Shown: piece by piece, positions 13,703 through 47,654 of the stretch
How positions within the stretch are numbered: the first letter of the stretch is position 1
Layout: every line of letters begins with the position of its first letter
NCBI GenBank assembly: GCA_035479295.1
Contig: DATIIV010000006.1
Coordinates: 1-60,787, forward strand
Source of the DNA: Candidatus Saccharimonadia bacterium
GTDB lineage: Bacteria > Patescibacteriota > Saccharimonadia > UBA4664
DNA: 60,787 nt
Reading direction: 5' to 3'
Notes under the pieces: model-generated
Databases searched by the model: none
Told to the model about the DNA's origin: nothing
The model's input: the letters and a program-made list of their open reading frames with translations, nothing else
Position numbers and translations under genes: made by a program

Positions 13703-14275
13703 CTACTTTTTAGAAATGTCCGATACCTTCGCATTCGACAAACTGCGCAATCTCTCTGACGCAACAAGAACCTTCGACCCTCGAATCCCGCTGCCTAAGA
13801 TCACTCTTTCGTGCTGGATAACCTGGCTATCAATAAGAATTGGCCAATCGCTCGGTAAGCCAATTGGTGTAATGCCACCGTACTCCATATGTGTGAGCGA
13901 TGTTGCAATGTCCATTGGAGCGAAAGAAACTTTACGGGCATTGAGTGTTTTGCGGACCATGCCATTTACGTCGGCCCTGTTTGTAGCTAGAACCACGCAA
14001 GCCGCATACCACGTCCTGTCTCCTCGCTTTGCCTCGACGATCACGCAGTTAGCTGAAACATCTAAGTCAATCTCGTATTGTTTACAAAACGCAGCAGTAT
14101 CTGCCAGATTTGGGTCAATTTCAGAAACCCAAACATCACTATAGCCACGTTCCTTGAGGCAATCATCGACTGGTACTCCAAGTAAGGACTTCGCTTGGTC
14201 TGTGGGCTGAAATGTAAGTTTACCGAGTTGTTGTGTCATATAATTACTACTTTCTAGGACTGAGTCCCTCTTCAT
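13703..14275 (-). CDS. YbaK/ProX-type aminoacyl-tRNA deacylase domain protein
   Basis: 190 aa. SANCVIVEAKRGD....ACVVLATNRADVNG.....LNARKVSFAPMD...LTHMEYGGITPIGL resembles the YbaK/EbsC fold pattern. Lies in lower-GC DNA. Confidence 0.65.
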   Translation of the reverse strand: MKRDSVLESSNYMTQQLGKLTFQPTDQAKSLLGVPVDDCLKERGYSDVWVSEIDPNLADTAAFCKQYEIDLDVSANCVIVEAKRGDRTWYAACVVLATNRADVNGMVRKTLNARKVSFAPMDIATSLTHMEYGGITPIGLPSDWPILIDSQVIQHERVILGSGIRGSKVLVASERLRSLSNAKVSDISKK

Positions 14276-14531
14276 TTATTGTAATACAGTTGAGCCCGCG
14301 GCCAACACACGAAGACAGGTTGAGGTGTCAACAGATTGGCAGCCAACAAAAAGGTCCAGATACGGGTACTGAACCTGTTTTGGTGAACCTAACAAGGATG
14401 AAGTGGCACACCTTGTACCCTGATATCGTCAATTTACACCTTAGACTCAATGAACTTGGTTGTATCGTCTATAACGAGAGGGTGATAGTCGATAGTGAGC
14501 CATAACATAATTTTACGGCAAAGATGCTGAG

Positions 14532-15698
14532 TTATTCTCCTAGAATCTCCCTCTGGATGTCACAAGTATTAATAAGCCTCGCCTCAGAACGGAGCTGTGT
14601 CTCCCCCTTATAAAATAAGTATCGTCTCTCGACAGGAATATTTAGTAGTTCTGCAAAGTAAGTGAGTTTAACAGAATGTTCTTTTACGTACGTACTCGTT
14701 GCCTTGATTTCAGCTATGGCGAGGCCTCGAGGCGTTTCAAATACGCAGTCTGCTTCGCCATATTGGTTGCGTATAAAGTAGACTCGTGGTTGCTCGCCGG
14801 TATTCGTTTGAGTCTTTAGGAGCTCACTAATTGCTAGGTTCTCAAAGATGTTGCCGTAAAAATGGCTTGCCGTTAACTCCTGTCGTGTACGAATACCAAG
14901 TAAGTAACAAAGTATGCCGGTATCGTAAAAATACAGCTTCGGCATTTTTGTCAGCCGCTTGGATATATTCGCCGCGTATGGTTGCAGGCGATAGGCGATA
15001 AACGAGGCCTCCAATACGCCAATCCATGCGTCAATTGTCTTCACGTCAACACCAACGGCGCCACTAAGGTCGGTCATATTTAATATTTGCCCGGCCCGGC
15101 CGGCACAGAGCGTGATGAAGCGCTGGAATTTAGGTAGATTGTCAATGGTCCTCAAGTCGCGTACATCACGCTCAATATAGAGACTCACATAAGATGAGTA
15201 GAAGGTCTTTGGGTCGATTTTGTGATCGTATACCCCTGGATAAGAACCGGCAATAACGGCGTCATCAACATCAGCAATCCTCTTCTGATGGAAGCTGCCA
15301 ATCTCTGGCAGGGCAAGGGGCAGAAGCGTTGTAAGCCCAGTTCTACCAACCAGCGTTTGCCCAATGTGTTGTGAGAGCAGAAAATTTTGAGAGCCGGTCA
15401 AAATATATTGTGCTGTTTCTTTGCTTTCATCCAGCTTTGCTTGCAAATATGACAAGATATCTGGTACGCGCTGTACCTCATCGATAATAGTGCGCGGGCC
15501 ATACTGCTTCAAGAATCCGCGAGGGTCGTCTTGAGCAAACTGCCGCGAATCCAGGTCTTCAAGCGAGACATAGGTGTAGCCGTTGAAAAGTGCACGCGCA
15601 AGTGTTGTTTTGCCGGACTGGCGTGGACCAGTAATAGTTATGGCTTTAAAGCTTTTAGCAAGTTCGCGTATTGTGTTTTCGGCAATTCTTTCTATCAT
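14532..15698 (-). CDS. AAA family ATPase with DUF4143 (restriction-endonuclease-like) C-terminal domain
   Basis: 388 aa. Walker A ITGPRQSGKTTL. The overall layout and length match AAA_14 plus DUF4143 proteins. Low GC. Confidence 0.8.
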   Translation of the reverse strand: MIERIAENTIRELAKSFKAITITGPRQSGKTTLARALFNGYTYVSLEDLDSRQFAQDDPRGFLKQYGPRTIIDEVQRVPDILSYLQAKLDESKETAQYILTGSQNFLLSQHIGQTLVGRTGLTTLLPLALPEIGSFHQKRIADVDDAVIAGSYPGVYDHKIDPKTFYSSYVSLYIERDVRDLRTIDNLPKFQRFITLCAGRAGQILNMTDLSGAVGVDVKTIDAWIGVLEASFIAYRLQPYAANISKRLTKMPKLYFYDTGILCYLLGIRTRQELTASHFYGNIFENLAISELLKTQTNTGEQPRVYFIRNQYGEADCVFETPRGLAIAEIKATSTYVKEHSVKLTYFAELLNIPVERRYLFYKGETQLRSEARLINTCDIQREILGE

Positions 15699-15811
15699 AG
15701 TGACAAGTGTAGCTCATACAATACTGGAATTCAACTCCATAATTGCATGAACTATATCAGGTGGAATACTACTTATCCAGGCTACTTGCAATAGCCGCAA
15801 AACTGACGAAG

Positions 15812-16513
15812 CTAAATCTCATTGAGCCGACTAATCATCTCAGGAATCCTGATGTCGAGCCATGAATTTAGATCTTCAAAAATCTTAGTTGCTTCTGTGC
15901 TGTGCTTACTTTTATGTCGAGTGAGTGCTTTTTGATAGTCTGTTTGGATGTCTCGTAATAGCTCAACCGGCTTTTGCCAACCATAGGCTTGACACATCAA
16001 CTTTACGCGACGCACCTGTTCCATAGTATCAATATTTTTATTGATTAAATCTGTGTAACAATCGACTGCGTAGGCAAAGTCGCGTAGTCGCGCACCCGGC
16101 GCTGCTTCATCCCAGTCAATGAAGCCAATCGGTGTATCATTTTGAAATACGGTATTGTGTGGTCCAAGATCACCATGGGCTACGATCTCACTCTTGCTCG
16201 ACAACTTACTGTCGGCCGTTACGTCGTGATAGCGACGAATAAGCTTGGCAACATTTTCTAGCTTCGCGTCATTGAGCTTCACGCCGCTACCAGGTGGCAC
16301 GTTACCCTCAAAGTAAGTCAATATTTCTCTATTCTTGTTATCAATCCCTAAAAAACGCGGTGCTTCAGCAAAGTCAGCCTTTTCTAGATAAAGAAATAGT
16401 TTGTGAACAAACGCAGCGTTTTTAGACTGCTCACGATGAACAGTGTTACCGATTCGAGCAATGTTAGCATTTAACGCACCACCATGGAGAGGAACTTCAG
16501 GCTGTAAACTCAT
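15812..16513 (-). CDS. aminoglycoside/small-molecule phosphotransferase (APH) family protein
   Basis: 233 aa. HGDLGPHNTVF catalytic loop and FIDWDEAAPG metal-binding motif. Low GC. Confidence 0.8.
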   Translation of the reverse strand: MSLQPEVPLHGGALNANIARIGNTVHREQSKNAAFVHKLFLYLEKADFAEAPRFLGIDNKNREILTYFEGNVPPGSGVKLNDAKLENVAKLIRRYHDVTADSKLSSKSEIVAHGDLGPHNTVFQNDTPIGFIDWDEAAPGARLRDFAYAVDCYTDLINKNIDTMEQVRRVKLMCQAYGWQKPVELLRDIQTDYQKALTRHKSKHSTEATKIFEDLNSWLDIRIPEMISRLNEI

Positions 16514-16645
16514 TTATCCCATAATAACAGAAGCCGGTCTTCCCGCGGAGAATCGAACTCGATTTAACGGAGGCAGCACAAAAAGAAAAGCTCAACGAAA
16601 TCAATAGTGGAACTTTTCTGATCTGTAAAATTTTGAATAATACCC

Positions 16646-16721
16646 TGGTGATCCCACGGGGACTCGAACCCCGGTTGCCGGGATGAAAACCCGGTGTCCT
16701 AGGCCACTAGACGATGGGACC
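16646..16721 (-). tRNA. tRNA-Glu (anticodon UUC), CCA encoded
   Basis: The reverse complement GGTCCCATCGTCTAGTGGCCTAGGACACCGGGTTTTCATCCCGGCAACCGGGGTTCGAGTCCCCGTGGGATCACCA folds as a cloverleaf. It has a 7-bp acceptor, a CCGGG/CCCGG anticodon stem, loop TTTTCAT and a T-arm CGGGG-TTCGAGT-CCCCG. Confidence 0.92.
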
Positions 16722-16936
16722 ACGTGGCGATTTAACCGCCAAATCATACCATTGTGAGCCAGAATGATCAAGCCGCCGGGGGTGCGGCGCAGCTGGTGGC
16801 GCGCGAGGGTATCGTCGTAGAACTATTCGGCCTAAGGAATGCGTCAACGCCGACCTTCACGATTCTAACAACTCAGCCCCTTATATCTGGCGATATCTGG
16901 GAGAAATGCACAATTCGGCGGCCGGGGTGATGATGC

Positions 16937-16942
16937 TACAAT
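16937..16942 (+). promoter_or_regulatory. extended -10 (TGcTACAAT) upstream of the flippase gene
   Basis: TGCTACAAT at 16934-16942, 12 nt before ATG 16955. Confidence 0.5.
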
Positions 16943-16954
16943 CCCCAACGGTTT

Positions 16955-18238
16955 ATGACAAACAAAGCTAACATCCTAAAACGGGCTGCCGGAAGCACTT
17001 TTTTACGGCATAACGCGATCTACTTTGGCGGCGCCACTCTGGTGTCGTTCTTGAATTACCTCTACTACCCGGTGGTGAGCCGGCTGTTGGCACCGGCCGA
17101 GTTCGGCGAGGTGCAGGCCATCATCTCATTCTTTTTGCAGGCCGGGGTGTTCTTGCAAGTGCTCGGTCTGGTAACGATTGGGGTGATTAAGCGCTACGAG
17201 CACGGTCCGCAGCGGGCCGAGATTATCGCCGAGATCGAACGGCTGGCGCTCATGATCGGCTTGGTGCTGTTTGCGCTGGTGGTGGTAATGAGCCGGCCGC
17301 TGCAGGTATTTTTGAACTTCTCGTCGCTGGTGCCGTTTCTGCTGTTTGCGCTGTCGGTGCTCATCGGCATTCCGCTGGCCTTTAGTAATTCGTACCTGCA
17401 GGGGCATCAGCGGTTTGGTTGGCTGGCGCGGTCAAATATGCTGGCGGCTAGCAGCAAGCTGGTGCTATCGGTGGGGCTGCTGCTCGTGGGTCTGCGGGCG
17501 GCTGGTGCCGTGCTCGGTGTGGTGCTGTCACAAGTGGTGGCGCTGGGTTACTCGCTGTGGCGGGCGCGCCAGCTGGGCCGGCCGCGGTTGCAGTGGTGGG
17601 TGGGCCGGCCTCGGTTGGCGCTTATTCGGCCAGAGCTACGCTATGCTGGTCTGGTACTGGTAACGTCGCTGTGCGTTAACGTGTTGTTAAGCGTTGACAT
17701 CATCGCCGTTAAGCACTACTTTGACCCAGCTCAGGCCGGTCTCTACGCCGGTATCGCTACGGTGGCGCGCATCATCTTCTTTCTCACCGGCCCGCTGTCG
17801 GCGGTGCTCATCGCCTCGGTGGCGCTGGGTCAGCACGTGGAGAATCGCCGGCTACTGCTGCGCTCGGCCGGCCTGACGACGCTGCTGGGCGGCGGGGCGC
17901 TGGCAGCGTTCGCCTTGGCGCCCATGCTCATCGTACGGCTGCTCATCGGCGCCAAGTACCTGGCCTACGCCAACCTGCTGCCGCCACTCAGTCTAGCCAT
18001 CTTTCTGCTGTCGCTGGCCAACCTGCTGGTGTACTACTACGTGGCGCTGCGGCGCTACGCGGTGGCCGGTATTGCGGTGCTAAGTCTGGCGGGTACGAGC
18101 GTGCTGCTGGCTACTCAGCACCAGAGCCTGGCGGCGGTAGTGCAGAGTCTGTTGGAGGGAAGTTTCGGTTTACTACTACTGGTAATGCTGTTGGGCCTGT
18201 GGCGCCCGGTGGCTAAGGGGGAGATCCAACATGGCTGA
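16955..18238 (+). CDS. oligosaccharide/polysaccharide flippase (MOP/Wzx-like)
   Basis: 427 aa with about 12-14 hydrophobic segments. The N-terminus FLRHNAIYFGGATLVSFLNYLYYPVVSRLL is typical of polysaccharide biosynthesis proteins. First gene of the GT cluster. Confidence 0.75.
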   Translation: MTNKANILKRAAGSTFLRHNAIYFGGATLVSFLNYLYYPVVSRLLAPAEFGEVQAIISFFLQAGVFLQVLGLVTIGVIKRYEHGPQRAEIIAEIERLALMIGLVLFALVVVMSRPLQVFLNFSSLVPFLLFALSVLIGIPLAFSNSYLQGHQRFGWLARSNMLAASSKLVLSVGLLLVGLRAAGAVLGVVLSQVVALGYSLWRARQLGRPRLQWWVGRPRLALIRPELRYAGLVLVTSLCVNVLLSVDIIAVKHYFDPAQAGLYAGIATVARIIFFLTGPLSAVLIASVALGQHVENRRLLLRSAGLTTLLGGGALAAFALAPMLIVRLLIGAKYLAYANLLPPLSLAIFLLSLANLLVYYYVALRRYAVAGIAVLSLAGTSVLLATQHQSLAAVVQSLLEGSFGLLLLVMLLGLWRPVAKGEIQHG

Positions 18239-22464: not shown

Positions 22465-23576
22465 ATAACCACCGCACCAAACCCAAAAGAGTGCTCTTGC
22501 TGGGGTCATATGGACGCGGCAATATCGGCGACGATGTCTTCTTAATTGCGGCCACCAAGTTGTTGGCAGGCTATGAAATCGCCATTAACGCCGCCACAGA
22601 TGGCTCGTTACCTGCGGAGGTCCAGGACAAAGTGCTGGTGCTGCGAACCGAAGACTCGAGCGACTGGCGACAAAAAGCAAAAGTACTTTTGCAGGCTAAA
22701 GCGATTATTTACGGCGGCGGAGACCTGTGGGTGGAGCTATTTGGCGATAAACGTCCACGGCAAGCGCTCTGGAAGATGTTCTTGCTCAACCTCGCCGCCC
22801 GCATGTTAGGCAAAAAGGTGCTTTATATTGGCTGCGGTGCCGGCAAACTGGAGGGCTTCTCGCTTACGCTGGCCAGGTTATCGGCGCACCTAGCTCATGG
22901 CATAATCTTGAGAGATGAGGTTACGCGCGAGGTGCTTGCCCTCAAAGATGTGCTCGTTTTGCCCGACCTAACCATAACCCTCTGCTCGGAGGCCCCAAAG
23001 CCGGCGCCCTTGCCATTACGCCACCCGATAAAGCTCGTTATATCGCTTCTCTACTATATTCCCGAGCCGGAGCGTAATTTTGAACCTTATATTCAGCGCA
23101 TAGCAGACTGCCTTAACCAGCTTGATTCTCGTAATCGGTTCGAGATAACACTCTTGCCCATGCTGACGGCCCGCAATACGCCTCATAATGACATCTGGGC
23201 TTCCGAGCGCCTCATGGAGCGATTGGCGCCCGGTCATCAAGTCAAGATCGCCGCGCCGACCAGTGTGGGACACTGCCAGCAGATACTATCCGACGCAGAC
23301 ATCATTATCGGCTCCCGGCTTCACGCTAATATCTTGGCAACTTGGGCGGCAAAGCCGTGTATTGGCGTGGCCTATCGGCCCAAAGTCGCGCGCTTCTTTG
23401 AGCGCAATAACCTGGACCAGAACTGTCTCGATCTAGATAACCTGGGTGCACTACCGGCAGTAATGTCTCGTCTTATTAGAAATTACGATCATGCCGCCCG
23501 CCAAGCCTATGCAGTGTGGGAAGAGAATGCCAAGCAGGGGAGAGCGTATGAAAGCTTTATTCAAACACATCTTTAA
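22461..23576 (+). CDS. polysaccharide pyruvyl transferase family protein
   Basis: Track ORF 22419..23576. Start set at ATG 22461 (ATGA overlap with the upstream stop). LLLGSYGRGNIGDD near the N-terminus and IIGSRLHANI near the C-terminus match PS_pyruv_trans-type proteins. Confidence 0.7.
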   Translation: MNNHRTKPKRVLLLGSYGRGNIGDDVFLIAATKLLAGYEIAINAATDGSLPAEVQDKVLVLRTEDSSDWRQKAKVLLQAKAIIYGGGDLWVELFGDKRPRQALWKMFLLNLAARMLGKKVLYIGCGAGKLEGFSLTLARLSAHLAHGIILRDEVTREVLALKDVLVLPDLTITLCSEAPKPAPLPLRHPIKLVISLLYYIPEPERNFEPYIQRIADCLNQLDSRNRFEITLLPMLTARNTPHNDIWASERLMERLAPGHQVKIAAPTSVGHCQQILSDADIIIGSRLHANILATWAAKPCIGVAYRPKVARFFERNNLDQNCLDLDNLGALPAVMSRLIRNYDHAARQAYAVWEENAKQGRAYESFIQTHL

Positions 23577-26500
23577 TCGCTTAAGAGCGGATGATTGGCA
23601 GTCGCTCCTTATTCGCCTCGCCGCTATTGGTGTTATTGTTGCGCTCCTGGTGCTGCCATACTTCTTATTTGGCACCCGAATGCACGCCGAGGGCGACGAC
23701 TCTCACTTGTATTTTCACTACCCAGAGTTATGGATAAAAAATATCGCCAATAGCTCCTGGATGAGCTTCTCCTCGGCCGGCAAGCAGGATGAGCACTTCT
23801 TTTTGTTGCCTATCCTGTATCTATTTTGGGGCATTAAGCAACTGGGCATACCTACCTTCGTAATTCAAAACTTGAGCTTCTCGGCTATCTTTATCCTCGG
23901 TTTCGTCTTCTTCCAGAAGCTGGTGCGAGAGCTGCTTCCAAACAATAAAGACTACCGCGTAGAACTGCTGTTTGGGGCTCTCATGTACATCTTCTCGCCC
24001 ATAATTTTAATTGCACCACTTCGGTCGTATTTGGCACCTATCTGGCTGATTGGGGCCTTGCCACTTATGGTGTATTTGCTGGTGCGGTATATAAAAACCA
24101 ACCGCCCCATCTATCTCGCCATTAGCGGCCTATGCGCTGTTGTCCTTTCGGTGGCCCTAAACGCCTTGCCATGGCTATTGGGCTGTGTGCTGCCGGTAGC
24201 AGTAGGCGGTGCGGCCTTATCGGTGCTAACGTCCGGCGTCGAAAAGAGAACCTTCTTTAAGCGAACTGGCTACTGGTTGCTCGTAGTCGGCCTCTGCCAA
24301 GCCTTTTGGCTGACATCGTTTGCTGTTAGCTTGAGCGGTAGCAACTCCTTGGGCGGGCGCATATTTAACGATGATGTGAAGCAGTCGTTTAGCCGGACGG
24401 TAATAACGACCGATCGAGGCAACACGGTTATCGATCCATTGCTGAATCTGTTCCATCGCGAGATTCAGCGCGACTTTAACTGGACCTCATACACCACGTA
24501 TGTTAACTGGTATAACCATCTCATTCCGTTGACCTCAGTTTATATCGTTATTCTGCTGCTGGGAGTATTATTTGCTGGGCGTTTCGGCAGCCGAGTCTAC
24601 TGGTTTCTTTTTAGCTCATTCTTAGTGGCTTTATTCTTGTTCACCGTCCACATTGGCTGGCTCGAGAACCTGTTTCTGCTGGCTGGAGGGGTGCCTGGAT
24701 TTGCCATGTTCCGCAACTTCTATAACAAGTTTGCACTTGGCTATGTTCTGCTTTACGCCTCAATTATTACGTTCTCACTCATATATATTAAACAGGGTTT
24801 AAAACAGAGATACTTCGTCATTCCGTTGTATGTGGCGGGCTTCTTGGCTATCGCGCTGAATGCTCGGCCCTTCTTTACCGGCGAGATCATTAACGCTAAT
24901 TTGCAGGATACGCCTCATGTTCAGCGCAATCTTCATATGCCTCAAGAGTACCTGGATTTTATGCAGCAGTTAGGCAAAATGGTGCCATCGAACTCTAACG
25001 TCTTTGATGTGCCGTTTGGCACGTCGGCGTATACCATTATTCCGGAGACGGGCTCAGACCATGCTTATTCCGGTAAATCGCCGGTTAAGCTGTTCAGCGG
25101 TATAAGCGATTTTAGCGGCAATCTCTCCTTCCCTCCGGCCATCGCTCGTCAAGTTAACGCTGCCATTATGCAGCGCGATTACGTTAAGCTGCGCCATCTG
25201 CTTAGCTCGTTGCATATTAACTACATCTTCGAGACCAAGAACATTCCGGCTGAGCTCATTCAGTCATCGTTATTTGATGATCGGGTACTTATTAAGACGG
25301 ATGCCGAGTTTCGTCAGCAACTCTACGGGCAGAAGCTCTTAACCAGCGCGGATGGAAATTACGTCTTATACAGTCTCAAGCAGACTCAGGAGGCGTTGCC
25401 AGCTGATAGTTTTGTAGCAGCTACTACCGCCTATGCGGTTTCGCCTCCGCTTCTAGATGCAAACGGCAATATGTTGTCTGGGTCGCTTGGCTACTTTTTA
25501 GATGTGGCGCATATAGGCCTAAAAGAGGGCGCCCAGGGCAGTCAATTAGCGGACGCCAAGGTTAAGCCGTTCACCCTGGGTGACGCTATCGCCGATGCCG
25601 CCAAGAGCACTATCGAGGTGCCGCATAATAATCTATATCAGGTAGTTAGCAGCGACTTAACTGGCGTCTTAGGCCTTCAAAACTTGGCTAAGGCCACGTA
25701 CACTCATGATCAGATTCCGCCGCAAACCGTCTCGGTGGGCCAGCTGTCGCCCGATAATCTCATTCAAATAAATAATGAGTTTTATCCTCCATCTAAGCTA
25801 AACGGAGCTGTTATTAGCGATACAGACAATATTACCGTCTTGCAAAAGAGCGGCGAGCTAACAGGAGGCACCACGAATGTTTACCAGCACTGGGTGCCCG
25901 GCGACTGTACGGCCGAGGATAAAGGCAAACTGGTGGCGGTGGCTCATGATGTGGCCGCCGATGTCATTACTCTGACCGCCAAGAAGGATCATAATGCTTG
26001 TCTTTTCTCGGACATGCCAACTAAGGTTTCGGCGAGTTACGTGGTGAGCTTTGAGTACAACACCAATATGACCGGGGCCTCGCTGGGCATTACGCAGCGC
26101 GACAAGCTGACCGACGCAAATAGAACGATTGGCTCGCCGTTTCAGGCTGGTCCGTCTAATCAGTGGAACTCATTTAGCTATACCTTTAGCGCCCAGGATG
26201 GTACCGCTCGTATCTACTTATTCTCTGGCCGGAGTCCGCAGCAGGCAGTAACGAGTTTTCGTAATATTCAGATCAGTGAGTACGACCCTACTCGGACCGT
26301 TTCCCTTGCTAATAGTGGCTTCTCCGATCCAGAGGTCGGCGAATACTCGGCTGCAGCGATGAACTCTGCGCCTGTGTCGGCTACTAATGTGCCGGTTCCG
26401 CCCCTATCCGAGTGGCGCCAAGGAGATTGTAATGCTCTCGATGATAGCTTAACCACAGACTTTACTCACTTGGACGATGGTATTCAGCTGAGCGCTAAGG

Positions 26501-27249
26501 ATGGCCACAACGCCTGCATTCGGTTGGTGACCGATATAGATACTAACTACTCCTATACAATGGGTTTCGATTATTATGCAACTGGCTCGAGTGGTGCCTT
26601 TAAGATGGCCTATATCAATGACCCTGGCTTTCCACTAACAAAGTATTCTGAGCCGGAAGTGCAAAACAGCTGGCATCATGTCACGATTAACCCTTCTTCT
26701 CCGGACGGGGCTAAGCGACTGACTCTTTACTTGTACTCAGGGACGAATAGTAAGGGTACGGCTCAGATAAAATATCGCAACCTTACCATCAAGCGAGCAC
26801 CAAAAACGTTCTCTGAGAACCTGATTGTGACGCAGGCTGCAGCCGCTCATACCCCGCCTACGGTTAGCAGTACCGAGATTGCACCTCACTTATATAACGT
26901 TAAGGTAGCCGCGGCTAAGTCGGGCTTCTTCCTCAATTTTTTAGAGCCGTATCATGCGGGCTGGCAGCTTTCCGTGGTTAGCGGCAAGCGTGCTAATTCA
27001 GTTATGCCTCATGTGACCGCTAATGTGCAGACCAACGCTTGGTACATTGACGTTAATACCCTCTGCAAAGAGCAGAAGCGTTGTGCGCAGAACCCAGATG
27101 GCTCGTACAATATTGAGCTAACGGCTACCTTTACGCCCGAGAAGTACTTTTATGTTGGACTTGGCCTAAGCGCACTGGCTGTGCTGAGCTGCATTGGTTA
27201 TCTCGTCTGGTGTTGGCGTCGAAAGCACTGGTTGCTAAGGCTATTTTAG
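23548..27249 (+). CDS. very large integral membrane protein: N-terminal GT-C-like polytopic domain plus two CBM-like modules plus a C-terminal TM anchor
   Basis: Track ORF 23491..27249. Start set at MKALFKHIF (23548), preceded by GGGGAGAG. About 12 or more TM segments in the first 480 aa or so. A large soluble region has a duplicated module. Terminal TM is LGLSALAVLSCIGYLVWCW. The architecture recalls AftD-like arabinofuranosyltransferases (inference only). Confidence 0.8.
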   Translation: MKALFKHIFNRLRADDWQSLLIRLAAIGVIVALLVLPYFLFGTRMHAEGDDSHLYFHYPELWIKNIANSSWMSFSSAGKQDEHFFLLPILYLFWGIKQLGIPTFVIQNLSFSAIFILGFVFFQKLVRELLPNNKDYRVELLFGALMYIFSPIILIAPLRSYLAPIWLIGALPLMVYLLVRYIKTNRPIYLAISGLCAVVLSVALNALPWLLGCVLPVAVGGAALSVLTSGVEKRTFFKRTGYWLLVVGLCQAFWLTSFAVSLSGSNSLGGRIFNDDVKQSFSRTVITTDRGNTVIDPLLNLFHREIQRDFNWTSYTTYVNWYNHLIPLTSVYIVILLLGVLFAGRFGSRVYWFLFSSFLVALFLFTVHIGWLENLFLLAGGVPGFAMFRNFYNKFALGYVLLYASIITFSLIYIKQGLKQRYFVIPLYVAGFLAIALNARPFFTGEIINANLQDTPHVQRNLHMPQEYLDFMQQLGKMVPSNSNVFDVPFGTSAYTIIPETGSDHAYSGKSPVKLFSGISDFSGNLSFPPAIARQVNAAIMQRDYVKLRHLLSSLHINYIFETKNIPAELIQSSLFDDRVLIKTDAEFRQQLYGQKLLTSADGNYVLYSLKQTQEALPADSFVAATTAYAVSPPLLDANGNMLSGSLGYFLDVAHIGLKEGAQGSQLADAKVKPFTLGDAIADAAKSTIEVPHNNLYQVVSSDLTGVLGLQNLAKATYTHDQIPPQTVSVGQLSPDNLIQINNEFYPPSKLNGAVISDTDNITVLQKSGELTGGTTNVYQHWVPGDCTAEDKGKLVAVAHDVAADVITLTAKKDHNACLFSDMPTKVSASYVVSFEYNTNMTGASLGITQRDKLTDANRTIGSPFQAGPSNQWNSFSYTFSAQDGTARIYLFSGRSPQQAVTSFRNIQISEYDPTRTVSLANSGFSDPEVGEYSAAAMNSAPVSATNVPVPPLSEWRQGDCNALDDSLTTDFTHLDDGIQLSAKDGHNACIRLVTDIDTNYSYTMGFDYYATGSSGAFKMAYINDPGFPLTKYSEPEVQNSWHHVTINPSSPDGAKRLTLYLYSGTNSKGTAQIKYRNLTIKRAPKTFSENLIVTQAAAAHTPPTVSSTEIAPHLYNVKVAAAKSGFFLNFLEPYHAGWQLSVVSGKRANSVMPHVTANVQTNAWYIDVNTLCKEQKRCAQNPDGSYNIELTATFTPEKYFYVGLGLSALAVLSCIGYLVWCWRRKHWLLRLF
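25891..26805 (+). repeat. two paralogous modules of about 132 aa (carbohydrate-binding-module-like) inside the giant membrane protein
   Basis: Module 1 (25891-26289) reads WVPGDCTAEDKG...ITLTAKKDHNACLF...YLFSGRS...FRNIQISEY. Module 2 (26413-26805) reads WRQGDCNALDDS...IQLSAKDGHNACIR...YLYSGTN...YRNLTIKRA. Confidence 0.7.
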
Positions 27250-39398: not shown

Positions 39399-40685
39399 AT
39401 GAAGTGTCCTAAATGCCAGCATGATATGCTGGAATCCCACCACGGCTGGCTCTGTCTTAATTGTGGCCACCTGGAGCCGGCGGCGGCCAACCAGACGCCA
39501 TTAACGGCGGCCGATATCAAAAATGGCCGTCCCACCGCCGAAAACCCAATTATGCCACTAAATGCTGCACCCGCACCGTCCGAGACCAAGCCAGTGTCGG
39601 CCACGGCGCCAATAGCGGACACCGCGCCGTCTAAGCCGGCTGATGAGTCAAAGGAGCCTACGGCTGAGGCTGTGGAAAAGTCGGCGACGCCAGAGCCAAT
39701 CCCGGCGGCGCCGGCCGAGATCGATGCGCCGGTTGAAGCCAAGGCTGAACCAGACCAGGCACCAGAGGCCGCCGAAGCTTCCGAGCCGAAGATCCACGAC
39801 GAGAAGGAGGAGCCGGCCGCCGAGGTGGTGGCCAAGCCCACCGATCAAGACGATGAGGCTGACGAGGCCGATGACGCTGAGCCTGAGGCCGCCGACGATG
39901 ACACTGATGACGACAGTGATGACAGTGACGACACTGACGAGACCGAGGATGCCGATGAGGCCGTACCCGCTGTCATCGATGCACCGGTCGACGCGCCGGC
40001 CGAAGCGGAGGTCAAGGTTGAGCCTATTAATAACAATGACGCTCCCGAAGAGGTAGCCGAGGCAATTAGCGCAGCTGTAGCGGCGACGCAGCCCACTGAA
40101 GCTGAGGCTTCGGCTGCACCCAAGACCGCGGATGCCGAGACGCCCGAGCCTACAGCGCCAGCTCCCGCCACTGAACCCAAGCCTGAACCTGAACCCAAGT
40201 CCGACCCCGACCCAAAGCCCGAATCAGTCGCTAGCGTTCCGTCGGCGCCCGTGGCTGCGGCTTACACCCCGGTTCATGCGGCCGACGTTCACACGGGCGG
40301 CAAGCCTCGTGCGGTCGACGCCATTGCCTCTAAGCCTAAGCCGCCGGTGGTCTCTGCGCCGTCCACAGCAGATACCATCGCCGCGCCAACTCCGGTGCCA
40401 ACTCCTGAGGCCTCGCCACCCGCTTCGCCGTCGCCGGCTGCATCGCCAGCCCCTATGCCCGCTCCGGCCGCTGCTCCTGCGCCCGTTGCGCCCACTCCGC
40501 CTCCTGCTCCGGCTCCGTCTATTCCCCAGACCGTCCCTGGCGCCAAGCCACCGGTTATCGCCAAGACCCAGCCCCGACCGCTCAAACTTCGTGATATTAT
40601 TGCTATTGCTGTCGGCGCAATCCTCCTGATTGTCCTGGGCATCTTTGCTTATCTCGTCATCACCAAGCAAAGCCTACCGTTTTAG
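39399..40685 (+). CDS. zinc-ribbon protein with long acidic/Pro-Ala-rich disordered region and C-terminal TM anchor
   Basis: N-terminus MKCPKCQHDM...CLNCGH (CxxC...CxxC). About 330 aa of low complexity follow (DDxDDDSDDSDD, then PAPxP runs). The C-terminus IIAIAVGAILLIVLGIFAYLVI is hydrophobic. Confidence 0.7.
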   Translation: MKCPKCQHDMLESHHGWLCLNCGHLEPAAANQTPLTAADIKNGRPTAENPIMPLNAAPAPSETKPVSATAPIADTAPSKPADESKEPTAEAVEKSATPEPIPAAPAEIDAPVEAKAEPDQAPEAAEASEPKIHDEKEEPAAEVVAKPTDQDDEADEADDAEPEAADDDTDDDSDDSDDTDETEDADEAVPAVIDAPVDAPAEAEVKVEPINNNDAPEEVAEAISAAVAATQPTEAEASAAPKTADAETPEPTAPAPATEPKPEPEPKSDPDPKPESVASVPSAPVAAAYTPVHAADVHTGGKPRAVDAIASKPKPPVVSAPSTADTIAAPTPVPTPEASPPASPSPAASPAPMPAPAAAPAPVAPTPPPAPAPSIPQTVPGAKPPVIAKTQPRPLKLRDIIAIAVGAILLIVLGIFAYLVITKQSLPF

Positions 40686-41300: not shown

Positions 41301-43568
41301 ATGAATGATCTGCTAGCCGAGCTAAATGAGCCGCAGCGCCAGGCTGCCCAAACCACCACGGGGCCGGTCTTGATTTTGGCCGGCGCTGGCTCGGGCAAGA
41401 CCAAGGCGCTGACGCATCGCATCGCCTACCTGGTGGCGCAGCAGGGGGTGCGGCCGGTCAATATCTTGGCCGTTACCTTTACCAACAAGGCCGCCGGCGA
41501 GATGCGCGGCCGAGTGCTGCGACTGCTGGGCCTCGATCCCGCCAGCCGCACGTACTTTCCGTTTATTGGCACCTTCCACTCCATTTGTCTGCGGCTGCTG
41601 CGGCGCGAGGCGGCCGAGATCGGCCTGCCGGCCAACTTCCTCATCTTCGATGCGGCCGATTCACAGAGCGCCATTAAGCAGGCCATGCGTGCTACCCACA
41701 TCGACGACAAACAGTTTACGCCCGGCCTCATTCACGGCCTCATCTCGTCGGCCAAAAACGAGCTGGTCGGCCCCGACAATTACGCCAAACTAGCCAATGG
41801 CAAGGCCCAAGATGCCGCCGCCAAGGTCTACCCGCGCTATCAAGCCCTGCTCAAGGAGGCCGGCGCCCTCGACTTTGACGACCTCATCTTTGAGACCGTG
41901 CGCATGTTTCGCCAGTATCCGGACCTTCTGCACAAATACCAAGAGCAGTTCCAGTACATCATGGTCGACGAGTATCAGGACACGAATCACGCACAGTATC
42001 AGATCACCAAGCTGCTGGCAGCGGCGCATCGCAATCTGTGTGTGGTGGGCGACGACTGGCAGAGCATTTATAGCTGGCGCGGGGCTAATTTTCAGAATAT
42101 TCTCGATTTTGAGAAGGACTATCCCGAGACGCAGGTAATTAAGCTGGAGCAAAATTACCGCAGCACTCGCAATATTCTCGATGCCGCCCACGCTATTATT
42201 ACCAAAAATCGCACCCGGTCCGACAAAAAACTCTGGACTGAGCTGGGAGCCGGCGCGGGTATCGGTGCGGTCAATGTTTACAACGAGATCCAGGAGGGCG
42301 AGTGGATTACGCGCAAGGTCCAAGAGCTGGTGGTGACCGAGAAGCGCGAGCTGTACGATTTTGCGGTGCTGTACCGCACCAATGCTCAGTCGCGCTCGCT
42401 TGAGGAGGCGTTTCTACGGGCCGGATTGCCGTATAAAATCGTCGGTGGTACGCGGTTTTATGAGCGGCGCGAAATCAAAGATGCCATGGCCTACTTGCGA
42501 TTCGTCTACCAGCCCGACGACGTGGTGAGCTTTGGCCGTATTATTAATTTGCCGCCGCGCGGCCTGGGCGACGTGAGCCTGGCGCGGCTAGAGGAGTGGC
42601 GGCGGGCACAAGGGCTGGGGCTGCTGCCAGCGCTCCAGCGGGCGGCCGAGGCGCCGGGGTTACAGGCTCGGGCGGTAACGGCTCTGCGCGGGTTTGCCGA
42701 GCTCATCGACGGCCTGCGCGCCGAGATTCCCAAGCGCTCGGTGAGTGGCCTGCTCGACCTGATTATCAAGCGCTCGGGCTACCTCAATTATCTGGACGAC
42801 GGCTCGGTTACGGCGGCCGATCGCATCGAGAACGTCAAGGAATTATTGAGTGTCACCGAGACGTACAATGAGCTGTCGTTGCAAGAATTTCTGGAAGAGA
42901 TCGCGCTGATCGCCGACATCGATAACTATGCCCAAGACACCAATGCCGTAACCCTCATGACGCTGCACGCGGCCAAGGGCCTGGAGTTTCCAGTGGTGAT
43001 CATTCCCGGCATGGAGGAGGGGATCTTTCCGCACTCGCGGTCGCTGTTTGACGCCGAGCAGATGGAGGAGGAGCGGCGGCTCTGCTACGTGGGCATGACG
43101 CGGGCCAAGGAGCGGCTGTTCTTGGTGTATGCTAATTCGCGGCTGCTCTACGGTCGCACCGATCACAATCCGCCGTCGCGGTTTATGCTGGAGGTGCCGC
43201 CGGAGCTGCAGGCCGAAGGGAGCGAGTGGGGTGTGGCGGGGCGAGCGGCCGGGGCTGGGCATGGAGCTGGAGCGGCTAGCTGGTCGGCTACCACGCTGCA
43301 TGGCGGTGGCGGCTCGGGCCGGCGTGGTCCGGCGGCCGATGTGCTCGGTGCTGGCCAGAGCGGCCTGCCCACCACCGAGCACGAGGCCGCCGCTCACCGC
43401 GAGGAGCTGCTCGGCCTCCAGCTCCAGCCCGGCGACCGCATCGAGCACGCCAAATTTGGCGCCGGCATCGTCAGTGCCGTCGATGGCGACGAGGTTACGG
43501 CCGCCTTCGCCGGCCTGGGCAGCAAGCGCCTGTCGCTCAGCTTCGCGCCTATTCGCAAGCTTGACTAG
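41301..43568 (+). CDS. pcrA: ATP-dependent DNA helicase PcrA/UvrD
   Basis: LNEPQRQAA, AGAGSGKTKALTHR, FTNKAAGEM, VDEYQDTN, LEQNYRST and the C-terminal VTLMTLHAAKGLEFP..., VGMTRAK motifs. Start trimmed from 41214 to 41301. Confidence 0.92.
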   Translation: MNDLLAELNEPQRQAAQTTTGPVLILAGAGSGKTKALTHRIAYLVAQQGVRPVNILAVTFTNKAAGEMRGRVLRLLGLDPASRTYFPFIGTFHSICLRLLRREAAEIGLPANFLIFDAADSQSAIKQAMRATHIDDKQFTPGLIHGLISSAKNELVGPDNYAKLANGKAQDAAAKVYPRYQALLKEAGALDFDDLIFETVRMFRQYPDLLHKYQEQFQYIMVDEYQDTNHAQYQITKLLAAAHRNLCVVGDDWQSIYSWRGANFQNILDFEKDYPETQVIKLEQNYRSTRNILDAAHAIITKNRTRSDKKLWTELGAGAGIGAVNVYNEIQEGEWITRKVQELVVTEKRELYDFAVLYRTNAQSRSLEEAFLRAGLPYKIVGGTRFYERREIKDAMAYLRFVYQPDDVVSFGRIINLPPRGLGDVSLARLEEWRRAQGLGLLPALQRAAEAPGLQARAVTALRGFAELIDGLRAEIPKRSVSGLLDLIIKRSGYLNYLDDGSVTAADRIENVKELLSVTETYNELSLQEFLEEIALIADIDNYAQDTNAVTLMTLHAAKGLEFPVVIIPGMEEGIFPHSRSLFDAEQMEEERRLCYVGMTRAKERLFLVYANSRLLYGRTDHNPPSRFMLEVPPELQAEGSEWGVAGRAAGAGHGAGAASWSATTLHGGGGSGRRGPAADVLGAGQSGLPTTEHEAAAHREELLGLQLQPGDRIEHAKFGAGIVSAVDGDEVTAAFAGLGSKRLSLSFAPIRKLD

Positions 43569-43589
43569 TGTTCGTCAGCGCTTTTTAAT
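43561..43589 (+). promoter_or_regulatory. sigma-70-like promoter TTGACT-17 nt-TTTAAT overlapping the pcrA stop
   Basis: TTGACTagtgttcgtcagcgcttTTTAAT. It would start a transcript about 23 nt before ATG 43619. Confidence 0.5.
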
Positions 43590-43618
43590 GAATCACGGCC
43601 CGTTCGCCACCGACAAGA

Positions 43619-43870
43619 ATGAAGGTTGGATACGTGACCTGTATGATCATGCAAGCTTCTGCGGAACAGGCCGCTTTGGCGGCCAGGCTGTTCCTTCCTG
43701 ATGCTTTGTCGCCCGGAGCGCTGTCGGCGACCAGCGACAATCCTACATGTATGTGCATGGGAGAGGGGGCAGGCTGCACTGGCTGTTCTTGCCAAACCTG
43801 CCCGCAAAGGAAGCGGTGCAGCCACACCGTTAGTGTGGCCGACCAGCTGTTTTGTTCAAGCTGTCGCTAG
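43619..43870 (+). CDS. Cys-rich small protein 1 (83 aa)
   Basis: MKVGY... The C-terminal 40 aa carry C-x-C-x6-C-x2-C-x-C-x2-C-x5-C-x11-C-x2-C. The same signature occurs in the adjacent ORF although the DNA is diverged. No obvious SD. Confidence 0.45.
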   Translation: MKVGYVTCMIMQASAEQAALAARLFLPDALSPGALSATSDNPTCMCMGEGAGCTGCSCQTCPQRKRCSHTVSVADQLFCSSCR

Positions 43871-43876
43871 CGGCCG

Positions 43877-44083
43877 ATGAGAGTGGGAGGCGTTCCGATA
43901 CACTTGAAGCTTCTCCCCGGTTTTCTGATTACGGTACTCGGTCCGGTAGGGCTGGCGAACCGCTGCCAGTGCAAGAATCCGGCGTGTCGGTGCCCCTGCG
44001 AGGCGTGCGATATGGGTCTGCAGTGCATTCGATACATTACGGTGCCGGGCATCTGTAGCGCCTGCTCTTCGGTTGGGCTGTAA
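43877..44083 (+). CDS. Cys-rich small protein 2 (68 aa), paralogue of the preceding ORF
   Basis: MRVGG... C-x-C-x4-C-x-C-x-C-x2-C-x5-C-x9-C-x2-C. Starts 6 nt after the stop of ORF 1. Confidence 0.45.
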   Translation: MRVGGVPIHLKLLPGFLITVLGPVGLANRCQCKNPACRCPCEACDMGLQCIRYITVPGICSACSSVGL

Positions 44084-44085
44084 TC

Positions 44086-44121
44086 CGGTAGGCTTGCCGG
44101 CCACGACCAGCAAGCCTACCG
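44086..44121 (+). terminator. 12-bp perfect hairpin right after Cys-rich ORF 2
   Basis: CGGTAGGCTTGC-cggccacgacca-GCAAGCCTACCG. No U-tract. Confidence 0.5.
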
Positions 44122-44173
44122 AACCCTAAACTTATCCACATTGACGGCGCCCAGATAGAGCGCTACCATAAGC

Positions 44174-47222: not shown

Positions 47223-47654
47223 ATGACCATGCCATTCGGAGAGAACACCTGGACAGAGCAGCAGCGGAACGATGCGCTCTGGCTCGACCCATTGCTACTC
47301 GATGACGCGCTTGAGGCGACCGAAGCCGCGCTTCGAGTCGGTGTCACCGTCGAAGCCCTGTGGAGCCTGGTGCGTGATCGGCAGTTGCTGTGCATTGTGT
47401 GCGACAACCAGGTGTTCTTTCCGGGCTTTCAGTTCACGGAGCACGGCGTTGTGCCGCACCTGCGCGAGATCCTGCCGCAGTTACCCTTCACCTGGGGGCT
47501 GTGCGGCTTGATCGAGTTTCTGACGATCAGGCCCATGGTCCTGCTCCACGAGTCCGACCCCGTCAGCCTGCCGGTCATCGAGTGGCTGCGGCTCGGCGCC
47601 CGCCCGCAGCAGGTGCTGGACTTCCTGCGGCGCAGCAGCGAGGAGGTGGCTTGA
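47223..47654 (+). CDS. hypothetical protein, possible HTH plus DUF2384-like antitoxin-type protein
   Basis: Track ORF 47151..47654 (TTG). ATG 47223 preferred. VTVEALWSLVRDRQLLCI looks HTH-like. The C-terminus SDPVSLPVIEWLRLGARPQQVLDFLRR resembles the Xre/MbcA/ParS toxin-binding domain pattern. Weak. Confidence 0.55.
   Translation: MTMPFGENTWTEQQRNDALWLDPLLLDDALEATEAALRVGVTVEALWSLVRDRQLLCIVCDNQVFFPGFQFTEHGVVPHLREILPQLPFTWGLCGLIEFLTIRPMVLLHESDPVSLPVIEWLRLGARPQQVLDFLRRSSEEVA

What the first reader, a model, noticed from the sequence alone, without database searches (positions are those of the whole stretch)
43561..44121. Self-contained unit encoding two tandem paralogous nine-cysteine small proteins between pcrA and the RpfB-like gene
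**Layout.** A good TTGACT-17-TTTAAT promoter overlaps the pcrA stop. Two adjacent ORFs of 83 and 68 aa follow, and then a perfect 12-bp hairpin.

**Shared features.**
- Both ORFs begin M(K/R)VG.
- Both end with the same cysteine scaffold: CxC-x4/6-C-x1/2-C-x-C-xx-C-x5-C-x9/11-CxxC.
- The nucleotide sequences are clearly diverged, which argues for selection on the cysteines and against a chance ORF.

**Possible roles.** The scaffold fits a metallothionein-like or other metal or redox-binding peptide, or a Cys-rich RiPP precursor. No maturase lies nearby.

**Caveats.** There is no obvious SD, and the region also forms several strong stems. A structured ncRNA remains an alternative.
Basis: partly seen in the sequence, partly recalled or inferred. 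Interest (0 to 1): 0.65.

Follow-up and report, generated by a model that had tools for sequence, protein, structure and literature searches.

The report
Unannotated tandem nine-cysteine mini-protein genes
Between the helicase gene pcrA and the cell-wall gene rpfB of an uncultured soil Saccharibacterium lie two small genes that gene callers missed; each encodes a mini-protein with nine strictly conserved cysteines that most likely hold metal ions, and no relative was found in any family, protein or structure database searched.

Summary
ORF1 (43619-43870, 83 aa) and ORF2 (43877-44083, 68 aa) exist. Both carry the stated scaffold CxC-x4/6-C-x1/2-C-x-C-xx-C-x5-C-x9/11-CxxC, and a perfect 12-bp hairpin follows.

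The scaffold is not chance. It gave 0 matches in 20 million simulated codons and 4e-6 or less in composition-preserving shuffles.

The nearest relative (a Saccharibacteria MAG, RpfB 77% identical) has the same layout right after pcrA: one intact 71-aa copy with all nine Cys, one frame-broken copy, then a 12-bp hairpin. There is no DNA-level similarity, and the Cys codons differ synonymously. Selection therefore acts on the protein, not on an RNA.

No match was found in Rfam, Pfam, NCBIfam, PHROGs, PDB or 1.84 billion representative proteins. None of the ORFs is in a 15-billion-protein collection.

The "self-contained unit with a good promoter" part is weak. The -10 hexamer lacks the key A. The -35 hexamer is made of pcrA's last codons. 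In the relative, the first copy starts 16 nt after the pcrA stop behind a Shine-Dalgarno (SD) motif. Co-transcription with pcrA is at least as likely as a separate promoter.

Best reading: a lineage-restricted family of cytoplasmic metal-thiolate mini-proteins, either metallothionein-like with an M3Cys9 cluster or a two-site zinc domain. Function is untested.

The parts
41301..43568 (+). pcrA/UvrD-type helicase gene directly upstream. It is the likely source of read-through transcription into the Cys-ORF pair.
   Evidence: Pfam UvrD-helicase E 6e-91, UvrD_C, PcrA_UvrD_tudor. The called gene is 755 aa. No terminator-like structure lies after its stop.
43561..43589 (+). TTGACT-17-TTTAAT promoter-like site overlapping the pcrA stop. 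It is weak or doubtful.
   Evidence: The sequence was read directly. The promoter scan did not call it because there is no A at -10 position 2. The equivalent site in L003 reads TCGACT and is followed 16 nt later by the first ORF.
43619..43870 (+). ORF1: an 83-aa Cys-rich mini-protein with a variable N-terminal extension and a C-terminal nine-Cys domain.
   Evidence: GC3 is highest in this frame. The best cross-genome frame match is to L003 338-553.
43748..43864 (+). Nine-Cys domain of ORF1 (CMCMGEGAGCTGCSCQTCPQRKRCSHTVSVADQLFCSSC).
   Evidence: Pattern match. All nine Cys are invariant in the 3-way alignment.
43877..44083 (+). ORF2: a 68-aa paralogue that starts 6 nt after the ORF1 stop. It has a moderately hydrophobic N-terminal extension and a nine-Cys domain.
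43964..44065 (+). Nine-Cys domain of ORF2 (CQCKNPACRCPCEACDMGLQCIRYITVPGICSAC).
44086..44121 (+). Perfect 12-bp GC-rich hairpin 3 nt after the ORF2 stop, with no U-tract. It is the likely end of the transcription unit.
   Evidence: -26.5 kcal/mol, z -6.5. An analogous 12-bp hairpin follows the second copy in L003.
44141..44169 (+). Conserved rpfB promoter (TTGACG-17-TACCAT) that marks the downstream boundary of the variable slot. The rpfB ATG lies 4 nt after the -10 hexamer, which suggests a leaderless transcript.
   Evidence: It is conserved in L003 and L013.

Best explanation
**What it is.** The pcrA-rpfB interval carries two tandem, previously unannotated genes. They encode small proteins whose only conserved part is a C-terminal domain of about 35-45 residues with nine invariant cysteines.

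**How it is probably transcribed (inferred).** Transcription most likely reads through from pcrA, possibly helped by a weak internal promoter. ORF2 is probably translated by re-initiation, because it starts 6 nt after the ORF1 stop. Transcription probably ends at the 12-bp hairpin.

**What the proteins probably do (inferred, untested).** They are most likely cytoplasmic metal-thiolate binders. Two arrangements fit the spacing:
- All nine Cys hold a trinuclear M(II)3Cys9 cluster. This is the stoichiometry of the metallothionein beta-domain and of the CXC, pre-SET and Bud31 zinc clusters.
- Two sites form instead. C5xxC6...C8xxC9 would form a zinc-ribbon or knuckle on the predicted beta-hairpin, and C1xC2...C3x(1-2)C4 would form a second site, leaving C7 spare or bridging.

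**Likely role.** Zn/Cu/Cd buffering, or a small zinc-stabilised module.

**Distribution.** The family was found only in one clade of soil Saccharimonadia, in the window's MAG and in one sister species.
For: **Shown**
- The paralogy of ORF1 and ORF2 is far beyond chance, even when their Cys-rich composition is kept.
- A third intact member lies at the syntenic position in the closest relative (L003 338-553). It has all nine Cys aligned, an otherwise different Lys-rich sequence, a GGAAGGG SD and a 12-bp hairpin after it.
- A fourth copy, split over two frames, lies between pcrA and that member. It is the best non-training hit of the family profile (E 0.036).
- The two genomes share no nucleotide similarity in this interval (blastn E > 0.1). 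Six of the nine Cys columns mix TGC and TGT. The ORF1 frame against the L003b frame is the best of all 6x6 frame comparisons.
- The interval is not an RNA and not a repeat. No Rfam family matches, folding is unexceptional at z -1.35, and there is no other copy in the window.
- It is not a remnant of the genes that fill this slot in relatives.

**Inferred**
- Metal binding rests on three points. Cys makes up 21-26% of the domain. CxC and CxxC motifs are present. Nine Cys is the count that holds three metals in known clusters (PMC7614390 for Bud31, and its reference to the MSL2 CXC Zn3Cys9 cluster).
- The C5xxC6-x15-22-C8xxC9 spacing is typical of zinc ribbons and LIM fingers. The only weak PDB hits align exactly there (E 0.4-0.5).
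- AlphaFold places a beta-hairpin there in both models (pLDDT about 70).
- A cytoplasmic location is favoured because the L003 copies have no hydrophobic N-terminus and the Cys count is odd.
Against: - There is no expression evidence. No RNA run holds the region, and gene callers skipped all four ORFs.
- The window ORFs have no SD and are not leaderless with respect to the putative promoter.
- GC3 is 0.63-0.68, below the 0.73-0.85 of most neighbouring genes.
- The family was seen in only 2 of 17 related genomes. One of the four copies is frame-broken, confirmed by an independent assembly. Constraint may therefore be weak.
- No metallothionein, CXC, pre-SET or zinc-finger profile is matched.
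- Structure models have low confidence (pLDDT 55-60), and Foldseek found nothing.
- The N-terminal extension of ORF2 could be a signal peptide (KD19 = 1.64, with small residues Gly and Ala at -3 and -1 before Asn28; hand-read), which would argue against a cytoplasmic role.
Confidence: 0.55

Rival explanations
1. The ORFs encode secreted or processed Cys-rich peptides. They could be RiPP precursors (thioether or radical-SAM type) or disulfide-rich bacteriocin- or effector-like peptides that an epibiotic Saccharibacterium uses on its host or competitors. The variable N-terminus would act as a leader or signal peptide.
For: - The layout is a variable N-terminal extension followed by a conserved Cys-rich C-terminus, in tandem paralogous copies.
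- The ORF2 N-terminus is moderately hydrophobic, with small residues (Gly, Ala) at -3 and -1 before Asn28 (sequence).
- L003b has a GG just before the first Cys.
- There is a weak, non-significant match to the Clo7bot Cys-rich peptide family (E 0.1, 12.4 bits against a cut-off of 31).
Against: - No radical-SAM enzyme, cyclase, peptidase or ABC exporter is among the genes called within ±10 kb. All neighbours with a family assignment are housekeeping genes.
- The leaders are not conserved. L003 copy a has only 5 residues before the first Cys.
- ORF1 and L003b have no hydrophobic segment.
- Nine is an odd number for a disulfide-knotted peptide.
- In RiPPs the leader is usually the conserved part.
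Confidence: 0.14
2. The ORFs encode a small Fe-S or redox-sensing protein, in the manner of a WhiB-like or rubredoxin/ferredoxin-like module. It would be functionally tied to the pcrA operon and would use some of the nine Cys for a [4Fe-4S] or [2Fe-2S] cluster.
For: - ORF1 and ORF2 contain CxxC-x5-C. ORF1 even has CxxCP, which recalls the Wbl motif C-x2-C-x5-C (sequence, my own knowledge of Wbl proteins).
- The genes sit directly after a DNA-repair helicase gene, in the same orientation.
Against: - The x5 spacer is x9 in L003b.
- No Whib, ferredoxin or rubredoxin profile is matched at E up to 1-10.
- The domain is much shorter and more Cys-dense than Wbl proteins.
- No GVWGG turn or basic tail is present.
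Confidence: 0.08
3. The ORFs are not functional genes. They would be chance or decaying ORFs in a variable intergenic slot, or a structured or regulatory RNA with stems and a terminator, whose GC-rich sequence happens to translate into Cys-rich frames.
For: - Off-frame Cys-rich stretches are common in this GC-rich genome.
- The antisense frame of L003b is also Cys-rich and gives a spurious BLAST hit to ORF2.
- The window ORFs have no SD, and one L003 copy is frame-broken.
- The ORFs are absent from every protein database searched.
- They occur in only two genomes.
Against: - The nine-Cys spacing recurs three times, with P at most 4e-6 per sequence given its composition and 0 matches in 20 million random codons.
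- The two genomes share no nucleotide similarity that an RNA element would need.
- No Rfam family matches, and the folding z-score is -1.35.
- Cys codons vary synonymously.
- The L003 copies have SD motifs.
Confidence: 0.1

Closest known systems
Metallothioneins (vertebrate beta-domain M3Cys9; fungal Cu-MT; bacterial SmtA/BmtA and MymT)
   Same: - The domain is small and 21-26% Cys, with CxC and CxxC motifs.
- The N-terminal half, CxC-x4-6-C-x1-2-CxC-xx-C, resembles the CxC-x5-CxC-x3-CxC-xx-C spacing of the MT beta-domain and Neurospora Cu-MT (my recollection of those sequences).
- Nine Cys equals the ligand count of an M3Cys9 cluster.
   Different: - No profile match. Pfam Metallothio gives only E 1.8 (9.2 bits against a cut-off of 23) for L003b and nothing for ORF1 or ORF2.
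- No MT chain appeared among the PDB profile hits at E up to 10.
- The last three Cys are widely spaced (x5-9, x9-12) around a predicted beta-hairpin.
- The window copies carry 29-43 non-Cys N-terminal residues.
- The domains contain aromatic and His residues.
Zn3Cys9 cluster domains (tesmin/MSL2 CXC, pre-SET, Bud31/G10)
   Same: - Exactly nine invariant Cys sit in a short domain that begins with CxC. In these families nine Cys bind three Zn, with three bridging thiolates (PMC7614390).
   Different: - The Cys order and spacing differ.
- No TCR, Pre-SET or G10 Pfam hit and no PDB hit was found.
- Those are domains of large eukaryotic nuclear proteins, not free-standing bacterial mini-proteins.
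LIM / zinc-ribbon type C4 fingers
   Same: - The C5xxC6-x15-22-C8xxC9 spacing and the predicted beta-hairpin fit a CxxC...CxxC zinc knuckle pair.
- The only PDB sequence hits are to the second finger of LIM domains.
   Different: - The E-values of 0.4-0.5 are not significant, and there is no Pfam LIM or zinc-ribbon hit.
- Five additional invariant Cys are not explained by a single C4 site.
Cys-rich RiPP precursors (SCIFF/ranthipeptides, Clo7bot family)
   Same: - These are short ORFs with a Cys-rich C-terminus, often in tandem copies and often missed by gene callers.
   Different: - No adjacent maturase or exporter is present.
- The TIGR04333 score is far below its cut-off.
- The leaders are not conserved.

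Membership tests
Metallothionein (Pfam PF00131 and bacterial MT families) | Small protein with very high Cys content arranged in CxC/CxxC motifs. | tested here: met
   There are 9 Cys in a 34-43-aa domain, with CxC at the start and CxxC at the end in all three intact members.
Metallothionein (Pfam PF00131 and bacterial MT families) | Match to a family profile above its curated threshold. | tested here: not met
   ORF1 and ORF2 match no Pfam or NCBIfam family. L003b matches PF00131 at E 1.8, 9.2 bits against a cut-off of 23.
Metallothionein (Pfam PF00131 and bacterial MT families) | Binds several d10 metal ions in thiolate clusters. | not testable with these tools
   This needs recombinant protein with ICP-MS, ESI-MS or 113Cd-NMR.
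Zn3Cys9 domains (CXC/tesmin PF03638, pre-SET PF05033, Bud31/G10) | Nine conserved Cys. | tested here: met
   There are nine invariant Cys columns in alignment A3.
Zn3Cys9 domains (CXC/tesmin PF03638, pre-SET PF05033, Bud31/G10) | Family-specific Cys spacing, or a profile or structure match. | tested here: not met
   No such Pfam hit was found at E up to 1-10. The profile search of PDB lists no CXC, pre-SET or Bud31 chain at E up to 10. Foldseek found nothing at E < 5.
RiPP precursor with dedicated maturase | A modifying enzyme and/or exporter is encoded next to the precursor. | tested here: not met
   Among the genes called within ±10 kb, those with a family assignment are PGK, TIM, PcrA, RpfB-like, AMIN-like, KsgA, MetRS, TatD, an aminotransferase, DUF218 and CvpA/CAP. 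None is a radical-SAM enzyme, a cyclase or an ABC exporter.
RiPP precursor with dedicated maturase | Conserved leader peptide or precursor family profile. | tested here: not met
   The N-termini are unrelated (MKVG.../MRVG.../MPEH.../MGKP...). TIGR04333 scores 12.4 bits against a cut-off of 31.
WhiB-like Fe-S proteins | C-x14-22-C-x2-C-x5-C motif plus a Whib profile match. | tested here: not met
   CxxC-x5-C is present in ORF1 and ORF2 but is x9 in L003b. There is no PF02467 hit.
Sigma-70 promoter (for the 'self-contained unit' claim) | -35 and -10 hexamers with 16-18 nt spacing, including the conserved A2 and T6 of the -10; conserved in orthologous loci. | tested here: inconclusive
   TTGACT-17-TTTAAT is present but fails the A2 rule, and the scan did not call it. 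It is not conserved in L003, where the first ORF starts 16 nt after the pcrA stop.
Intrinsic terminator | GC-rich hairpin followed by a U-tract. | tested here: inconclusive
   The hairpin is strong in both genomes. The window has no T-run and L003 has only a partial one, and the scan did not call it.
Known structured RNA (Rfam) | Covariance-model match at or near the gathering score. | tested here: not met
   The best match scores 17 bits against gathering scores of 55-107, with E > 3.

The most novel reading that the evidence does not exclude
These ORFs found a previously unseen family of bacterial metallothionein-like mini-proteins. The family would be built on a single nine-Cys (M3Cys9-type) cluster, confined to soil Saccharimonadia, carried in the pcrA operon, and systematically missed by gene callers and by profile searches. 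Such a family could be much more widespread than current protein databases can show. A bolder variant is that the window copies have acquired export signals and act as secreted Cys-rich effectors of an episymbiont.
Probability: 0.3. Interest if true: 0.55.

Novelty: new variant of a known kind. Interest (0 to 1): 0.4.

Why it matters
- **Few known families.** Bacterial metallothionein-type proteins are few and patchily distributed (my own knowledge). My searches found no paper describing such a family in Saccharibacteria. These organisms have tiny genomes and live on other bacteria.
- **Conserved despite a small genome.** A conserved pair of nine-Cys mini-proteins in the pcrA operon suggests a dedicated metal-handling or zinc-stabilised module.
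- **Invisible to standard pipelines.** No gene was called here. None of the ORFs is in a 15-billion-protein collection. A profile built from the two window copies cannot even recover the orthologue in the sister species. This shows how such short Cys-rich families escape standard searches.
- **Limits.** The family was seen in only two MAGs, and its function is wholly inferred. The immediate impact is therefore modest.

Tried and rejected
**Searches that found nothing**
- Word-indexed homology searches with ORF1, ORF2 and the 3-sequence alignment.
- A full HMMER scan of 1.84 billion representative proteins with the ORF1/ORF2 domain profile. The single hit, P0001 (E 3.4e-4), is a repeat protein without the scaffold and is spurious. 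This negative is weak, because the same profile fails to find L003b among 336,000 residues.
- A metagenome scan with the Cys-domain alignment.
- A metagenome scan with the PcrA C-terminus. It returned 3 loci, none with a Cys ORF, and in L019 pcrA runs straight into pyrH.
- A viral contig scan and tblastn against plasmids and phages.
- Pfam, NCBIfam and PHROGs gave nothing significant.
- A PDB sequence profile search gave only non-significant LIM fingers.

**Structure prediction**
- AlphaFold models have low confidence (pLDDT 55-60).
- Foldseek against PDB gave only E > 5 hits to defensins and LIM domains, which are meaningless at this confidence.

**Expression and variation**
- DNA runs of the source soil study show no polymorphism in the region, so no dN/dS could be computed.
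- No RNA runs are available.

**Ideas rejected**
- Structured ncRNA.
- Repeated or mobile element.
- Remnant of the pyrH, alpha-CTD or membrane genes that fill this slot in relatives.
- Antisense ORFs as the real genes. They are not conserved between the genomes once composition is corrected.
- The shared M(K/R)VG start as a family feature. The L003 copies do not share it.
Full report
**Source and setting**

The window is contig CAYVKC010000008.1 of MAG GCA_964451975.1. DNA runs from a soil metagenome study hold the region identically. The RpfB-like neighbour has 16 relatives in GTDB species genomes; most of these records are titled Candidatus Saccharibacteria, Saccharimonadia or Saccharimonadales. 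The organism is therefore a high-GC (about 0.6) soil member of the Saccharibacteria (TM7, Patescibacteria). The finding lies between pcrA (Pfam UvrD-helicase, UvrD_C, PcrA tudor) and an RpfB-like gene (DUF348-G5-transglycosylase). The public gene call leaves the 605-bp interval empty.

**Checking the observation**

- ORF1 is 43619-43870 (83 aa, starts MKVG) and ORF2 is 43877-44083 (68 aa, starts MRVG).
- ORF1 carries CMC-x6-C-x2-C-x-C-x2-C-x5-C-x11-C-x2-C. ORF2 carries CQC-x4-C-x1-C-x-C-x2-C-x5-C-x9-C-x2-C. When the domains are aligned, all nine Cys fall in the same columns.
- TTGACT-17-TTTAAT sits at 43561-43589, across the pcrA stop.
- The hairpin 44086-44121 has a perfect 12-bp stem (-26.5 kcal/mol, z -6.5).
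- Neither ATG has a Shine-Dalgarno motif.

**Is it more than chance?**

Cys density alone is not enough. Off-frames of real genes in this window reach 9 Cys per 45 residues (17316-17663 and 47227-47511). The spacing is what matters.
- The scaffold pattern, and even its first six-Cys half, gave zero matches in 20 million codons generated from a 3rd-order Markov model of the window.
- It gave no further match in the six-frame translation of the window plus all fetched loci, about 336,000 residues.
- I shuffled the residues of ORF2 or of the relative's copy one million times, keeping all nine Cys inside the ~40-residue domain. The full scaffold appeared in at most 4e-6 of shuffles. The six-Cys half, defined strictly from the ORF1/ORF2 ranges, appeared in 0.02-0.6%.

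**The relative**

L003 (JARIHM010000081, RpfB 77% identical) is the closest genome found. Its pcrA ends at 141.
- A 71-aa ORF at 338-553 reads MPEHQIKLPNRLNDITGGMCICSGGSTCENCDCPHCKSKEHRVLRCTNKPDKELDNGYCKECWGKHKPKTC. Its spacing is CxC-x5-C-x2-C-x-C-x2-C-x9-C-x12-C-x2-C.
- All nine Cys align with ORF1 and ORF2, and almost nothing else is conserved.
- It has a GGAAGGG motif 8-9 nt before its ATG. A perfect 12-bp hairpin of unrelated sequence follows it (-26.3 kcal/mol, z -4.8).
- Between pcrA and this ORF lies a second copy, 16 nt after the pcrA stop and behind AAGGGGAG. It begins MGKPRCNCTGGKTCGC (CxC-x5-CxC) and then continues in another frame as ...QCRSSHRRTRCLKDASPSLNTLYCTSC.
- Joined, this copy has eight of the nine Cys, and it is most similar to its neighbour.
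- Its second half is the best hit of the family profile outside the three training sequences (E 0.036).
- An independent assembly of the source run has the same sequence, so the frame break is probably real.

The tandem pair at this exact position is therefore shared by two species.

**Protein or RNA?**

- The two genomes share no detectable nucleotide similarity across the interval (blastn E > 0.1).
- Among all 6x6 frame comparisons, the best is ORF1 frame against L003b frame (E 5e-5 uncorrected, 0.037 composition-corrected). The next best are ORF1 against the two halves of L003a.
- Six of the nine Cys columns mix TGC and TGT.
- GC3 is highest in the proposed frames (0.63 and 0.68 against 0.51-0.60 in the other frames), although it is below most neighbouring genes.
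- Rfam gives nothing (best 17 bits, E > 3).
- The 535-nt region folds no better than shuffles (z -1.35).
- The interval is not repeated elsewhere in the window.
- It carries no remnant of the genes that occupy this slot in relatives.

I conclude that these are protein-coding paralogues under selection for the cysteines.

**Transcription**

The 'self-contained unit' reading is weak.
- The -10 hexamer TTTAAT lacks the A at position 2. Every convincing -10 in this window has it: TACAAT, TACCAT, TAAGAT, TATACT, TAGAAT. The scan does not call the site.
- The -35 hexamer TTGACT is made of the conserved Leu-Asp-stop codons of pcrA and reads TCGACT in L003.
- L003 has no room for a promoter before its first copy.
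- No terminator or stable structure separates pcrA from ORF1.

Read-through from pcrA, with termination at the hairpin, fits both genomes. A weak internal promoter in the window is not excluded. Downstream, the rpfB promoter block (TTGACG-17-TACCAT, then ATG 4 nt later) is conserved in the window, L003 and L013 and bounds the cassette.

**Distribution**

- In the other 15 relatives, the region upstream of rpfB holds pyrH, membrane proteins or RpoA-alpha-CTD-like proteins, and no Cys ORF.
- The three extra metagenome loci found through the PcrA C-terminus also lack it.
- Searches of proteins, metagenome, viral, plasmid and phage DNA and exact-sequence look-ups found nothing.
- These negatives are weak. 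Gene callers skip these ORFs, and a profile built from ORF1 and ORF2 does not recover L003b even in a tiny database.

**What it most likely does (inferred)**

No family profile or structure matches. The case for metal binding rests on the following points.
- Cys makes up 21-26% of a 34-43-residue domain.
- CxC and CxxC motifs are present.
- The N-terminal half resembles metallothionein beta-domain spacing (my recollection).
- The Cys count of nine matches trinuclear M3Cys9 clusters. Examples are Bud31 and the MSL2 CXC Zn3Cys9 domain, as described or cited in PMC7614390.
- C5xxC6-x15-22-C8xxC9 has zinc-ribbon/LIM spacing, and the weak LIM alignments fall exactly there.
- AlphaFold predicts a beta-hairpin there in both models, with pLDDT about 70 locally and 55-60 overall.

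The L003 copies lack any hydrophobic N-terminus, and nine is an odd number for disulfide knots, so I favour a cytoplasmic metal-thiolate mini-protein. The ORF2 N-terminal extension could still be an export signal. The RiPP reading is disfavoured by the absence of any maturase or exporter within ±10 kb and by the unconserved leaders.

**Verdict**

This is a real, previously unannotated, lineage-restricted family of nine-Cys mini-proteins. The coding and paralogy claims are well supported. The autonomous promoter is not. The function is an inference. I rate it as a new variant of a known kind (small Cys-rich metal-binding proteins) with moderate interest.

Noticed in passing
window 41301, 44174, 46296, 39399, 50629, 58850 (gene starts): Many first-in-operon genes have a TAnnnT -10-like hexamer only 4-8 nt before the ATG (TACAAT, TACCAT, TAAGAT, TATACT, TAGAAT). 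This suggests widespread leaderless mRNAs. Internal genes (45545, 18231, 38135) carry GGAGG-like SD motifs.
   Followed up: partly
L003:636-1484; L013:2041-2625; L016:3062-3868: The variable slot upstream of rpfB holds free-standing proteins in several relatives. The L003 protein has an RNA-polymerase alpha C-terminal-domain-like module (Pfam RNA_pol_A_CTD, E 8e-14). The L013 and L016 proteins look similar by eye only. The window has none.
   Followed up: partly
L003:158-311: The upstream Cys-ORF copy of the relative is split over two reading frames and would have 8 of 9 Cys if joined. An independent Logan contig has the identical sequence. The cause could be a pseudogene, a short 43-aa product or a programmed frameshift.
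   Followed up: partly
window 17316-17663 and 47227-47511 (+ strand off-frames); L003 381-596 (- strand): Stop-free off-frame or antisense stretches reach 9-10 Cys per 45 aa in this GC-rich DNA. One gives a spurious BLAST hit to ORF2. This is a caution for any Cys-density-based screen.
   Followed up: yes
window 14001-17000 and 23001-27000: GC content drops to 0.44-0.51 in a window that otherwise averages about 0.6. These could be horizontally acquired or otherwise atypical segments.
   Followed up: no
window 39399-40685: This 428-aa protein has an N-terminal CxxC...CxxC zinc-ribbon-like start, a very long acidic Pro/Ala/Glu-rich low-complexity middle and a C-terminal hydrophobic segment. It has no Pfam family.
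   Followed up: no
window 41214 vs 41301: The longest pcrA ORF starts at GTG 41214 (784 aa). The public call starts at ATG 41301 (755 aa), which sits 6 nt after a TACAAT hexamer and fits a leaderless start.
   Followed up: no
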